From assembly GCF_003334315.1 (NCBI RefSeq), contig NZ_QOWR01000005.1: a stretch of DNA of 64,000 nucleotides; one strand, given 5' to 3'. The DNA comes from Escherichia coli (GTDB lineage: Bacteria; Pseudomonadota; Gammaproteobacteria; Enterobacterales; Enterobacteriaceae). Positions 40,287-40,495 of this stretch are shown here, in pieces. The translations under genes and the position numbers were made by a program. Every line of letters begins with the position of its first letter. Positions within the stretch are counted from its first letter, which is position 1. The notes below the pieces were generated by a model. The model was not told the origin of the DNA. It ran no database searches and was given only the letters and a program-made list of their open reading frames with translations.

Positions 40287-40495
40287 GCCAGGCAGTAACA
40301 TTACTGACTGGCCTCAGATTGTTGACCAAGTGCGCGTTGTACACGCCGGATGCGGCGTGAACGCCTTATCCGGCCTACGAAATCGTGCTAATTCAATATA
40401 TTGTGGGCTCCACGTAGGCCTGATAAGCGTAGCGCATCAGGCAGTTTTGCGTTTGTCAGCACTCTCAGACCAGCCAGTAACATTACTGACTGGCC
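40287..40495. repeat. Two REP units bracketed by a 28-bp direct repeat of a terminator-like hairpin
   Basis: hairpin copies at 40287-40313 and 40468-40495 (2 mismatches); REP units at about 40345-40378 and 40414-40442. Confidence 0.8.

What the first reader, a model, noticed from the sequence alone, without database searches (positions are those of the whole stretch)
40287..40495. Duplicated terminator hairpin flanking a REP pair between yfeX and yfeW
The same 28-nt sequence (ggccaggcagtaacattactgactggcc versus gaccagccagtaacattactgactggcc, 2 mismatches) occurs twice in direct orientation on either side of two REP units. Each copy is a hairpin; the right copy is followed by a T-run on the plus strand (terminator for yfeX) and the left copy by a T-rich tract on the minus strand (terminator for yfeW). 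A direct duplication bracketing REP elements looks like an insertion footprint or a recombination product.
Basis: seen in the sequence. Interest (0 to 1): 0.4.

Follow-up and report, generated by a model that had tools for sequence, protein, structure and literature searches.

The report
Terminator hairpin duplicated around a BIME-1
A mobile REP-pair element (BIME-1) sits between two copies of the old yfeX/yfeW terminator hairpin, and the same "whole hairpin duplicated on both sides" footprint turns up at many other BIME-1 sites, which gives a concrete clue to how these abundant bacterial repeats insert.

Summary
A 28-nt hairpin (H) occurs at 40286-40313 and 40468-40495 with 2 mismatches in direct orientation. 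The two copies bracket a 154-bp BIME-1 (B: flank motif, Y unit, L linker with an IHF-like site, Z1 unit, flank motif).

About 1,400 of 5,426 complete E. coli genomes, K-12 included, carry H-B-H. Most others are exactly 182 bp shorter (B plus one H) and have a single AAA-hairpin-TTTTT.

- H+B is a copy-number-variable 182-bp tandem unit in Escherichia, (H-B)n-H with n = 0, 1, 2 or 7. B is orthologous across species and Citrobacter has a lone H. The insertion is therefore old, and BIME-less E. coli alleles with near-identical flanks are most likely precise deletions.
- The footprint is general. Ten of 25 independent BIME-1 loci have a local hairpin duplicated on both sides. Five loci have filled and empty alleles, each empty one with a single hairpin.
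- Terminator function is not confirmed. Published K-12 Term-seq lists no 3' end at either copy and shows Rho-dependent read-through.

The insertion mechanism (staggered cuts at the hairpin feet, possibly by the REP-associated transposase) is inferred, not shown. I found no description of this footprint in the papers I could read; key older papers were unavailable.

The parts
39363..40262 (+). yfeX (porphyrinogen peroxidase) coding sequence; its stop codon lies 23 nt before H_L
   Evidence: Annotation of matching E. coli records; ORF list.
40283..40285 (.). A-run (AAA) to the left of H_L. On the minus strand it reads as the short U-tail after the hairpin.
   Evidence: Sequence. The same AAA precedes the single hairpin in BIME-less alleles.
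40286..40313 (.). H_L, the left copy of the 28-nt terminator-like hairpin (GGCCAGGCAGTAACATTACTGACTGGCC)
   Evidence: Identical to the single hairpin of BIME-less E. coli alleles L001 and L002.
40314..40467 (.). B, a 154-bp BIME-1 element (also called RIP or RIB), from TCAGATTGTTGAC to GTCAGCACTCTCA
   Evidence: About 90% identical over 152 of its 154 bp (40315-40466) to the fepA-entD BIME-1 in genomes that lack this copy. Orthologous copies at this locus in four other Escherichia species are 95-98% identical.
40314..40344 (.). Left flank motif of the BIME-1; its outer 13 nt form an imperfect terminal inverted repeat with the right end
   Evidence: Alignment with paralogues. 10 of the first 13 and 14 of 31 positions match the reverse complement of the right end.
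40345..40378 (+). Y-type palindromic unit (REP)
   Evidence: Pattern match; inverted repeat I6; sub-threshold REP-derived Rfam naRNA4 hit.
40379..40413 (.). L linker, carrying AATTCAATATATTG (40390-40403), an IHF-consensus-like site
   Evidence: Sequence. The same 14-mer recovered BIME-1 copies at 25 loci. IHF binding is taken from the literature quoted and was not tested here.
40414..40442 (-). Z1-type palindromic unit (REP), inverted relative to Y
   Evidence: Pattern match; inverted repeat I3 with the Y unit.
40443..40467 (.). Right flank motif of the BIME-1
   Evidence: Alignment with paralogues.
40468..40495 (.). H_R, the right copy of the hairpin (GACCAGCCAGTAACATTACTGACTGGCC). Its two differences from H_L leave it fully paired (with G.U pairs) only in minus-strand RNA.
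40496..40509 (+). T-rich run (TTTTTATTACTTTT) after H_R; it overlaps the yfeW stop codon at 40502-40504
   Evidence: Sequence. The same run follows the single hairpin in BIME-less alleles.
40502..41806 (-). yfeW / pbp4B coding sequence (1,305 nt as annotated in K-12); its stop codon lies 6 nt from H_R
   Evidence: Annotation; ORF list.

Best explanation
**What it is.**
- The convergent genes yfeX and yfeW once shared a single bidirectional, terminator-like hairpin (A-run, 28-nt stem-loop, T-run).
- A 154-bp BIME-1 (a REP pair with an IHF-type linker and inverted flank motifs) integrated there in an ancestor of the genus Escherichia.
- The integration duplicated the whole stem-loop, giving AAA-H-B-H-TTTTT.

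**What happened afterwards.** The two 28-nt direct repeats flank a palindromic insert, so the arrangement is unstable.
- Unequal recombination or slippage expands it to (H-B)n-H arrays: n = 2 and n = 7 in two other Escherichia species.
- The same processes, or recombination with BIME-less alleles, collapse it back to the single hairpin. About three quarters of complete E. coli genomes are in that state.

**How general it is.** The same whole-hairpin duplication brackets BIME-1 elements at many other loci. It is the insertion signature of this element class, not a local accident.

**Inferred mechanism (not shown).**
- The target is cut on each strand at the 3' foot of the hairpin, so the stagger equals the hairpin length.
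- The element is joined in, and fill-in synthesis duplicates the hairpin.
- The REP-associated tyrosine transposase, which cuts single-stranded DNA at C^T, is the obvious candidate enzyme.

**Functional consequence (inferred).** Each gene keeps a hairpin with a T/U run at the far side of the element. Both mRNAs would therefore gain a 3' UTR of about 180 nt containing the REP pair.
For: **Filled and empty alleles at this locus.**
- 1,400 of 5,426 genomes hold the full 521-bp query. Most others match over 339 bp, which is 182 bp less.
- Sequences L001 and L002 show the single hairpin TTAAA-GGCC...GGCC-TTTTT.
- The hairpin occurs only at this locus: 6,841 places in 5,426 genomes, median 1 per genome.
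- No hairpin-less B junctions exist.

**B is a dispersed element with defined ends.** 152 of its 154 bp match the fepA-entD BIME-1 at about 90%.

**The insertion is old.**
- E. albertii, E. whittamii and Escherichia spp. E1V33 and MOD1-EC7003 carry B at the same position.
- Those copies are 95-98% identical to B here, against 91.5% for the closest paralogue. The flanking genes are 92-96% identical.
- Three Citrobacter species have a lone homologous hairpin. It carries a compensatory G12-C17 pair in place of A12-T17.

**Arrays.** 2.2 and 7.2 copies of period 181/182.

**Deletion within E. coli.**
- BIME-less alleles have yfeW flanks 99.7% identical to the window.
- Single hairpins occur in both loop types. 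Both types are found as H_L or H_R in filled alleles such as L096 and L015.

**Generality.**
- In 25 distinct BIME-1 loci, left and right flanks align in direct orientation above the 95th percentile of mismatched-pair controls in 10 loci. Seven of these are above the 99th percentile after excluding one artefact. The direct score is at least the inverted score in all 10.
- A hairpin abuts 22 of 28 complete B ends, against 6 of 28 control positions 70 nt away.
- Four more loci have filled and empty alleles, the empty one with one hairpin and shorter by B plus one hairpin: rutG-ymdF, tsx-yajD, ysgA-metE and satP-mog.

**Mechanism hints.**
- Both junctions here are C^T (top strand GGCC^TCAGA, bottom strand GGTC^TGAGA).
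- The empty site has C^T at the 3' foot of the hairpin on both strands.
- E. coli TnpA_REP cleaves single-stranded DNA at C^T at variable distance from a REP (PMC3333891).
Against: - No insertion event was observed. Direction is inferred from phylogenetic distribution, and recombination between lineages could move filled or empty alleles around.
- Single-strand transposition of the IS200/IS605 type, the paradigm for the REP-associated transposase, makes no target duplication. The model needs both strands to be cut at one hairpin, for which there is no direct evidence.
- At other loci the base before the element's terminal T is T, G or A, not C.
- fepA-entD has complete B ends and no flanking hairpins.
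- About 60% of the sampled loci lack a recognisable duplication. Most of these have a truncated B, which I read as later decay; that reading is an interpretation.
- The 25 loci come from metagenome contigs picked by one exact pattern, so they are not a full census of one genome.
Confidence: 0.8

Rival explanations
1. **Two-step origin without target duplication.** BIME-1 inserted once to the right of the hairpin (H-B) in one lineage and once to the left (B-H) in another. Both sides are equivalent for a palindromic target. Recombination within B then produced H-B-H.
For: The hairpin and B are both near-palindromic, so both feet are equivalent targets. Single-strand (HUH-type) insertion makes no duplication. 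Recombination at this locus is evident from the mosaic hairpin haplotypes.
Against: It would have had to happen independently at about 10 loci. No H-B-only or B-H-only junction exists among 5,426 E. coli genomes at this locus. One-sided cases at other loci coincide with a truncated B, as expected from later deletion, for example the K-12 tsx-yajD allele.
Confidence: 0.1
2. **Plain tandem duplication.** Slippage or unequal crossing-over of a stretch that happened to include the hairpin and the BIME, with no link to how the BIME arrived.
For: Arrays of 2 and 7 units exist at this locus. An unrelated 130-bp x3 BIME-1 array that includes 9 nt of local flank lies between yfeZ and yfeY in L017. Tandem REPIN clusters that include flanking sequence are described in Pseudomonas (PMC3116915).
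Against: H-B-H is only 1.15 units. It cannot be made by duplicating a segment that is present once unless the hairpin already flanked B on both sides. The duplicated piece coincides with the stem-loop boundaries at every locus, whatever its length (19-28 nt). This rival explains the step from n to n+1 but not from 0 to 1.
Confidence: 0.07
3. **Snap-back (inverted) duplication.** Replication folded back at the centre of the BIME palindrome and copied the left hairpin in reverse complement on the right side.
For: AAA-H-B-H-TTT is a 216-nt imperfect palindrome, 164 of 216 positions self-complementary. The repeat finder reports 47-nt inverted arms at 81%. The full transcript folds as one giant hairpin.
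Against: The copies match better directly (2 mismatches) than inverted (5), and the asymmetric loop AACATT is the same in every copy. At other loci the loops also agree in direct orientation: TTTGT/TTTAT, CAGAG/CAGAG and TTAAA/TTAAA. The direct score is at least the inverted score in all 10 loci.
Confidence: 0.02
4. **Two independent terminators.** One for yfeX and one for yfeW, alike by convergence or chance, with the REP pair simply lying between them.
For: Convergent genes often each have a terminator. The A-run and the T-run sit on the outer sides.
Against: 26 of 28 positions are identical, including the loop, and shuffles gave no chance match. BIME-less alleles and Citrobacter have one hairpin serving both sides.
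Confidence: 0.01

Closest known systems
BIME-1 (also called RIP or RIB): Y and Z1 palindromic units joined by the L linker that binds IHF (Gilson/Bachellier/Hofnung; Oppenheim 1993; Boccard and Prentki 1993; summarised in Ton-Hoang 2012, PMC3333891)
   Same: Y unit, L linker with the AATTCAATATATTG motif, inverted Z1 unit and conserved outer flank motifs. It is intergenic and lies at the 3' ends of transcription units. Presence/absence polymorphism between strains has been reported ('excisions of a whole BIME-1', Bachellier 1997; recalled from the abstract, not read here).
   Different: BIME-1 is described as occurring as single copies, whereas here it forms 2- and 7-unit tandem arrays in other Escherichia. 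The whole-hairpin duplication on both sides is not mentioned in any paper I could read.
REPINs mobilised by RAYT / TnpA_REP, and tandemly repeated REPIN clusters (Bertels and Rainey 2011, PMC3116915 and PMC3337134)
   Same: An inverted REP doublet that folds as a long hairpin and is present or absent between strains. Ordered tandem repeats of REPINs 'including the flanking sequences' are described for Pseudomonas SBW25 and said to occur in E. coli, with no mechanism proposed.
   Different: Here the co-repeated flank is identified as the pre-existing terminator hairpin, and the array always begins and ends with it. The filled/empty comparisons show a structure-defined target duplication, which those papers do not describe.
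MITEs (miniature inverted-repeat transposable elements)
   Same: Short, non-coding and multicopy. The ends are imperfect inverted repeats (5'-TCAGAYTG ... CARTCTSA-3'), and the element is flanked by a direct duplication of target sequence.
   Different: The duplication is 19-28 nt long and its length is set by the target's stem-loop, not by the enzyme. [quoted passage not shown]
IS200/IS605-family single-strand transposition (HUH Y1 transposases)
   Same: Hairpin-recognising enzymes that are relatives of the REP-associated transposase. IS200C is itself found inserted just after the T-run of this same hairpin in some E. coli.
   Different: These elements make no target duplication, and the IS200C insertion here shows none.
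Precise excision of transposons by slippage between target duplications, helped by inverted repeats (the classical Tn10/Tn5 case; from my own knowledge)
   Same: Direct repeats flanking a palindromic insert; the loss restores the original site exactly.
   Different: The repeats are 28 nt rather than 9 nt. The process is inferred from population data and was not measured.
Bidirectional intrinsic terminators between convergent genes (Ju et al. 2019; from my own knowledge)
   Same: The BIME-less allele is A-run, GC-rich hairpin, T-run between convergent genes. All five filled/empty loci are convergent pairs of this type.
   Different: In the filled allele the A-run and the T-run are split between two hairpin copies 154 bp apart. 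Termination at either copy is not seen in the K-12 Term-seq tables.

Membership tests
BIME-1 / RIP | One Y and one Z1 palindromic unit in inverted orientation | tested here: met
   Y at 40345-40378 and Z1 at 40414-40442. They are complementary to each other (inverted repeat I3). The element aligns over 152 of its 154 bp with the fepA-entD BIME-1.
BIME-1 / RIP | Long L linker with an IHF binding site | tested here: inconclusive
   A 35-nt linker holds AATTCAATATATTG. This fits WATCAANNNNTTR with one mismatch (read by eye) and is conserved across 25 loci. Binding itself cannot be tested here.
BIME-1 / RIP | Occurs as a single copy per locus (unlike BIME-2 arrays) | tested here: not met
   It is single in the window and in E. 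coli. However, there are 2 copies in Escherichia sp. E1V33 and 7 in Escherichia sp. MOD1-EC7003 at this same locus. This is a departure in behaviour, not in composition.
REPIN (RAYT-mobilised REP doublet) | Inverted REP doublet able to form a hairpin | tested here: met
   Folds of the whole region give -98.8 and -105.6 kcal/mol, z-scores -6.3 and -8.9.
REPIN (RAYT-mobilised REP doublet) | Mobilisation by the cognate RAYT (TnpA_REP) | not testable with these tools
   The only support is indirect. Junctions are C^T at this locus, and TnpA_REP cuts single-stranded DNA at C^T in vitro.
MITE | Terminal inverted repeats | tested here: met
   10 of the first 13 nt match the reverse complement of the other end. 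Other copies read TCAGATTGTTGAC ... GTCATCAGTCTGA.
MITE | Short target-site duplication of fixed length | tested here: not met
   A duplication is present, but it is 19-28 nt long and equals the target stem-loop at each locus.
Intrinsic (Rho-independent) terminator, claimed for H_R (yfeX) and H_L (yfeW) | GC-rich hairpin directly followed by a U-run | tested here: inconclusive
   H_R on the plus strand is a weak stem (-11.3 kcal/mol) with a good T-run. H_L on the minus strand is a good stem (-19.7 kcal/mol) with only UUUAAU after it. The consensus scan calls neither.
Intrinsic (Rho-independent) terminator, claimed for H_R (yfeX) and H_L (yfeW) | An RNA 3' end mapped at the U-run in vivo | tested here: not met
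   Adams et al. 2021 Supplementary file 1 has no 3' end between K-12 positions 2549400 and 2549699. Supplementary file 2 lists a Rho termination region at 2549195 on the minus strand (window about 40713), antisense in yfeW. Low expression could hide a 3' end.
Tandem repeat with variable copy number | Head-to-tail units whose number differs between genomes | tested here: met
   Period 182. n = 0 and 1 in E. coli, 1 in E. whittamii, 2.2 units in L016 and 7.2 units in L017.

The most novel reading that the evidence does not exclude
BIME-1 elements behave as MITE-like transposable units whose target is the intrinsic-terminator-type hairpin itself. They join to the 3' foot of the stem on each strand, most simply after cuts by the REP-associated tyrosine transposase at N^T (C^T at this locus). 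The whole stem-loop, whatever its length, therefore becomes the target-site duplication. This structure-defined footprint would be the first sequence signature of how REP/BIME elements spread. It would also explain why they sit at the 3' ends of convergent genes, and it predicts precise reversion and tandem amplification.
Probability: 0.4. Interest if true: 0.8.

Novelty: new variant of a known kind. Interest (0 to 1): 0.6.

Why it matters
REP/BIME elements are the most abundant repeats in E. coli. Papers from 2021 and 2026 still say that their mechanism of dissemination is not established.

**A testable signature.** A reproducible insertion footprint gives something concrete to test:
- the element's ends abut the feet of a terminator-like hairpin;
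- the whole hairpin is duplicated;
- empty alleles hold exactly one hairpin.

The signature predicts the target (bidirectional terminator hairpins between convergent genes). It also predicts the geometry of the cuts (a stagger equal to the stem-loop length) and the reversal (precise deletion between the copies).

**A practical caveat.** In filled alleles the terminator is split, both mRNAs are predicted to acquire a REP-containing 3' UTR, and strains differ at such loci. K-12 is filled at yfeX/yfeW and rutG/ymdF and empty at ysgA/metE and satP/mog. 3' UTR biology read from K-12 is therefore strain-specific.

**Scope.** For the single locus alone the finding is modest: a known BIME in a known intergenic region.

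Tried and rejected
**Explanations rejected.**
- Chance repeat: rejected by shuffles.
- The hairpin as a dispersed repeat family: rejected, because it occurs only at this locus in 5,426 genomes.
- Inverted or snap-back origin: rejected by loop orientation and mismatch counts.
- Known RNA family: only sub-threshold REP-derived Rfam hits. naRNA4 scored 36.3 bits against a gathering score of 59.5, and ES036 27.3 against 37.6.

**Searches that found nothing or were confounded.**
- Intermediate alleles with B but no hairpin on one side: none found.
- Two-unit arrays within E. coli. The first attempt was confounded because the tool joins pieces. A strict E-value rerun found none. The 'highest 3' places per genome remain unexplained.
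- Other BIME-1 copies in the 64-kb window: none, only single Y units.
- A 109-bp x 2.9 REP array after yfeX in Citrobacter amalonaticus (L025). I could not tell whether its spacer is local sequence or a standard BIME linker, so I did not use it.

**Literature limits.**
- Term-seq: only Adams 2021 had readable supplements. Three other papers had none held.
- Bachellier 1997 (Genetics) and Clément 1999 are not held.
- The paper cap stopped me from reading Chiapello 2005 (PMC1187871), which mentions BIME-1 six times.
- Prior description of the hairpin duplication therefore cannot be excluded.
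Full report
**1. The observation**

The region between yfeX (plus strand, stop at 40262) and yfeW/pbp4B (minus strand, stop codon at 40502-40504) reads as follows:
- TTAAA
- H_L, GGCCAGGCAGTAACATTACTGACTGGCC (40286-40313)
- B, a 154-bp block (40314-40467)
- H_R, GACCAGCCAGTAACATTACTGACTGGCC (40468-40495)
- TTTTTATTACTTTT

The two 28-mers differ at two positions, and the start-to-start spacing is 182. A 22-nt core with up to 3 mismatches occurs nowhere else in the window and in none of 100 shuffles. Read as direct repeats the copies have 2 mismatches. 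Read as inverted repeats they have 5, and the asymmetric loop AACATT is the same in both.

Each copy folds on its own:

| Copy | Plus strand (kcal/mol) | Minus strand (kcal/mol) |
|---|---|---|
| H_L | -18.6 | -19.7 |
| H_R | -11.3 | -20.8 |

The two changes in H_R keep pairing, as G.U pairs, only in minus-strand RNA. K-12 MG1655 is identical to the window over the whole intergenic region. Window position p therefore corresponds to K-12 coordinate 2549646 + (40262 - p).

**2. What lies between the copies**

B contains a Y palindromic unit (40345-40378) and a 35-nt linker with AATTCAATATATTG. It also has an inverted Z1 unit (40414-40442) and conserved outer motifs. In E. coli genomes that lack this copy, the best match to 152 of its 154 bp (40315-40466) is the classical fepA-entD BIME-1, at about 90% identity from end to end. 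B is therefore a complete BIME-1 (RIP/RIB) unit whose ends coincide with the inner borders of the two hairpins. Its termini are imperfect inverted repeats, TCAGATTGTTGAC ... GTCAGCACTCTCA.

**3.

Results across 5,426 complete E. coli genomes:
- 1,400 genomes hold the full 521-bp query. Most others match over 339 bp, exactly 182 bp less.
- Fetched examples (strain 600468; O157:H7) read TTAAA-GGCCAGGCAGTAACATTACTGACTGGCC-TTTTTATTAC. That is one hairpin with the A-run on one side and the T-run on the other.
- The hairpin is unique to this locus: 6,841 places in all, median 1 per genome.
- The count of genomes with a B-hairpin junction (1,410) matches the excess of hairpin copies.
- A query made of the two hypothetical hairpin-less junctions found nothing.

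The 'insertion footprint or recombination product' reading is therefore supported.

Other alleles exist:
- B2/ST131-type strains have an internal deletion of yfeW next to a single hairpin.
- Some strains carry IS200C just after the hairpin's T-run.

**4. Direction and age**

YfeX loci from 80 species give these states:

| Species or allele | State |
|---|---|
| E. whittamii | H-B-H |
| E. albertii | H-B, followed by a deletion into yfeW |
| Escherichia sp. E1V33 | H-B-H-B-H |
| Escherichia sp. MOD1-EC7003 | 7.2 units of period 182 (seven B, eight H) |
| Three Citrobacter species | One homologous hairpin with AAA/TTTTT, no BIME |

- B at this locus is 95-98% identical between species, against 91.5% to the nearest paralogue. 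The flanking genes are 92-96% identical. The copies are therefore orthologous.
- The Citrobacter hairpin has a G12-C17 pair where Escherichia has A12-T17, a compensatory change that argues for a conserved stem.
- The hairpin is thus the old local feature, and B arrived in an Escherichia ancestor.
- BIME-less E. coli alleles whose yfeW flank is 99.7% identical to the window are then most simply precise deletions between the two 28-nt repeats.
- Single hairpins occur with both loop types: GTAACATTACTG and GTA(A/T)CACAACTG. Both types are found as H_L or H_R in filled alleles (E. coli R32_14_1F and E. whittamii). This fits different crossover points or repeated recombination.
- I cannot exclude that recombination between lineages moved alleles around.

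**5. Arrays**

(H-B)n-H always starts and ends with H. Expansion from n to n+1 needs only unequal exchange between 182-bp units. The step from 0 to 1 cannot be a plain tandem duplication, because H-B-H holds only 1.15 units.

A second, unrelated array lies between yfeZ and yfeY in MOD1-EC7003: 130 bp x 3, made of 9 nt of local flank plus a truncated BIME-1. That site is empty in the window at about 38630.

Tandem REPIN clusters that include flanking sequence are known from Pseudomonas. They are said to occur in E. coli, with no mechanism proposed. BIME-1, however, is described as single-copy.

**6. The footprint is general**

A metagenome scan for the end of the Y unit plus the L-linker motif gave 120 stretches. 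Of these, 99 usable copies fall into 25 distinct loci, one of which is yfeX/yfeW.

- Aligning the 45 nt to the left of B with the 45 nt to the right in direct orientation, 10 loci exceed the 95th percentile of 650 mismatched-pair controls. Seven of these exceed the 99th percentile after excluding one neighbouring-REP artefact.
- In all 10 the direct score is at least the inverted score.
- The duplicated pieces are locus-specific GC-rich stem-loops of 19-28 nt. Usually an A-run lies outside the left copy and a T-run outside the right copy.
- Where a B end is complete, a hairpin abuts it in 22 of 28 ends, mostly with zero offset. At control positions 70 nt away the figure is 6 of 28.
- Of the six loci with both B ends complete, five show the duplication; fepA-entD is the exception.
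- Loci with a truncated B typically keep the hairpin only on the intact side. The K-12 tsx-yajD allele shows this decay directly, with a 41-bp loss of the B end plus H_R.

Filled and empty alleles were checked at four more loci. Each is a convergent gene pair, and each empty allele is shorter by B plus one hairpin.

| Locus | Length difference | Empty-allele hairpin |
|---|---|---|
| rutG-ymdF | 493 vs 319 bp | ACCGCCGGGrTwACCGGCGGT |
| tsx-yajD | 493 vs 313 bp | AATGCCGGATTTCATATCCGGCATT |
| ysgA-metE | K-12 is empty | CCGGGTGGTATTACCACCCGG |
| satP-mog | K-12 is empty; 467 genomes filled | TCCCCCCGCTCGGGGGGA |

**7. Mechanism: shown and inferred**

Shown:
- The duplicated segment equals the target's stem-loop at every locus, regardless of its length or sequence.
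- The element's ends touch the stem feet.
- On both strands the element begins 5'-T(C/G/A)AGA.

At yfeX/yfeW both junctions are C^T (top GGCC^TCAGA, bottom GGTC^TGAGA). The empty site has C^T at the 3' foot of the hairpin on both strands (GGCC^TTTTT and GGCC^TTTAAT). E. coli TnpA_REP cleaves single-stranded DNA at C^T at variable distances from a REP, leaving a 5'-phosphotyrosine and a 3'-OH (PMC3333891).

Inferred:
- Each strand is cut at the 3' foot of its hairpin, for instance in an extruded cruciform.
- That gives a stagger as long as the stem-loop.
- Joining of the element and fill-in then duplicate the hairpin.

Caveats:
- IS200/IS605-type single-strand transposition makes no duplication.
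- Other loci have T^T, G^T or A^T at the junctions.
- No event has been observed.

Loss and expansion follow from 28-nt direct repeats around a palindrome, as in classical precise excision.

**8. Function**

The empty allele looks like a bidirectional intrinsic terminator, at -20.8 and -23.8 kcal/mol. In the filled allele each transcript first meets a hairpin without a U-run, then the REP pair, then the hairpin with the U-run.

Several results leave termination in doubt:
- In the full-length RNA the two copies pair with each other in a giant hairpin, at -98.8 and -105.6 kcal/mol.
- The terminator scan calls neither copy.
- Adams et al. 2021 list no 3' end between K-12 2549400 and 2549699. They list a Rho termination region at 2549195 on the minus strand (window about 40713), 217 nt past H_R and antisense in yfeW.

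For yfeX in K-12, termination is probably leaky.

**9. Novelty**

The element class (BIME-1/REPIN) is known, as are its strain polymorphism and tandem REPIN clusters. None of the papers I could read describes the whole-hairpin duplication at BIME-1 borders:
- a review says REPs lack MITE signatures;
- papers from 2021 and 2026 call the dissemination mechanism unresolved.

Key older papers (Bachellier 1997 and 1999; Boccard and Prentki 1993; Oppenheim 1993; Rudd 1999) and Chiapello 2005 could not be read. Prior description remains possible. I therefore rate this a new variant of a known kind, with moderate-to-high interest that rests on the generality of the footprint.

Noticed in passing
L005:480-1195 and L095 (E. 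coli O102:H6 and AR_0015), equivalent to window about 40500: IS200C, an HUH-family element related to the REP-associated transposase, is inserted directly after the T-run of the same hairpin (…CTGGCCTTTTT|GTGCACAG…). There is no target duplication.
   Followed up: partly
L003 and L004 (O25b:H4 and EC931), L093, L097; equivalent to window about 40540-41720: B2/ST131-type and some other E. coli have an internal deletion of yfeW/pbp4B. It leaves about 40 nt of the 3' end and an 87-nt 5' remnant next to murP. Three different hairpin haplotypes occur on this same deletion background, which suggests short-patch recombination at the hairpin.
   Followed up: partly
L018 (E. albertii NBRC 107761), equivalent to window 40468-41120: A 653-bp deletion starts exactly at the right end of the BIME-1 and removes H_R and the 3' part of yfeW. 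yfeW is therefore a pseudogene in that strain.
   Followed up: partly
L017:1357-1746 (Escherichia sp. MOD1-EC7003); empty site at window about 38625-38640: A 130-bp x 3.0 tandem array lies between yfeZ and yfeY, where the window has no repeat. Its unit is a truncated BIME-1 plus 9 nt of local flank (AGAATAACG). A possible 5-nt TAACG direct repeat sits at the outer borders.
   Followed up: partly
window 39321-39348 (+): A terminator-like hairpin (AATGCCACGGATTGCGTGGCATT plus ATTATTTT) lies between yfeY and the yfeX start. Published K-12 Term-seq 3' ends at 2550560/2550561 on the minus strand map to window about 39347-39348, 15-16 nt upstream of the yfeX start.
   Followed up: partly
L013 (E. 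coli SCPM-O-B-8794), downstream of yfeX: This strain has a different REP pair straight after yfeX, with no H hairpin and no yfeW (the sequence runs into murP). Its yfeX is only 94.7% identical in DNA to the window, which suggests a divergent or recombinant segment.
   Followed up: no
L025:3399-3715 (Citrobacter amalonaticus ku-bf3): A 109-bp x 2.9 tandem array of a REP pair plus a 27-nt spacer starts at the yfeX stop codon. I did not resolve whether the spacer is captured local sequence or a standard BIME linker.
   Followed up: no
L221 (E. coli DH5alpha / K-12), tsx-yajD intergenic region: K-12 carries a decayed version of the footprint: hairpin plus BIME-1, with the last 41 bp (right flank motif and right hairpin copy) deleted. 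Strain EC42405 has the complete hairpin-BIME-hairpin form.
   Followed up: yes
E. coli genomes: At least one E. coli genome has three places matching the hairpin, and one match lies on a plasmid. A strict search for a two-unit array found none, so these cases are unexplained.
   Followed up: partly
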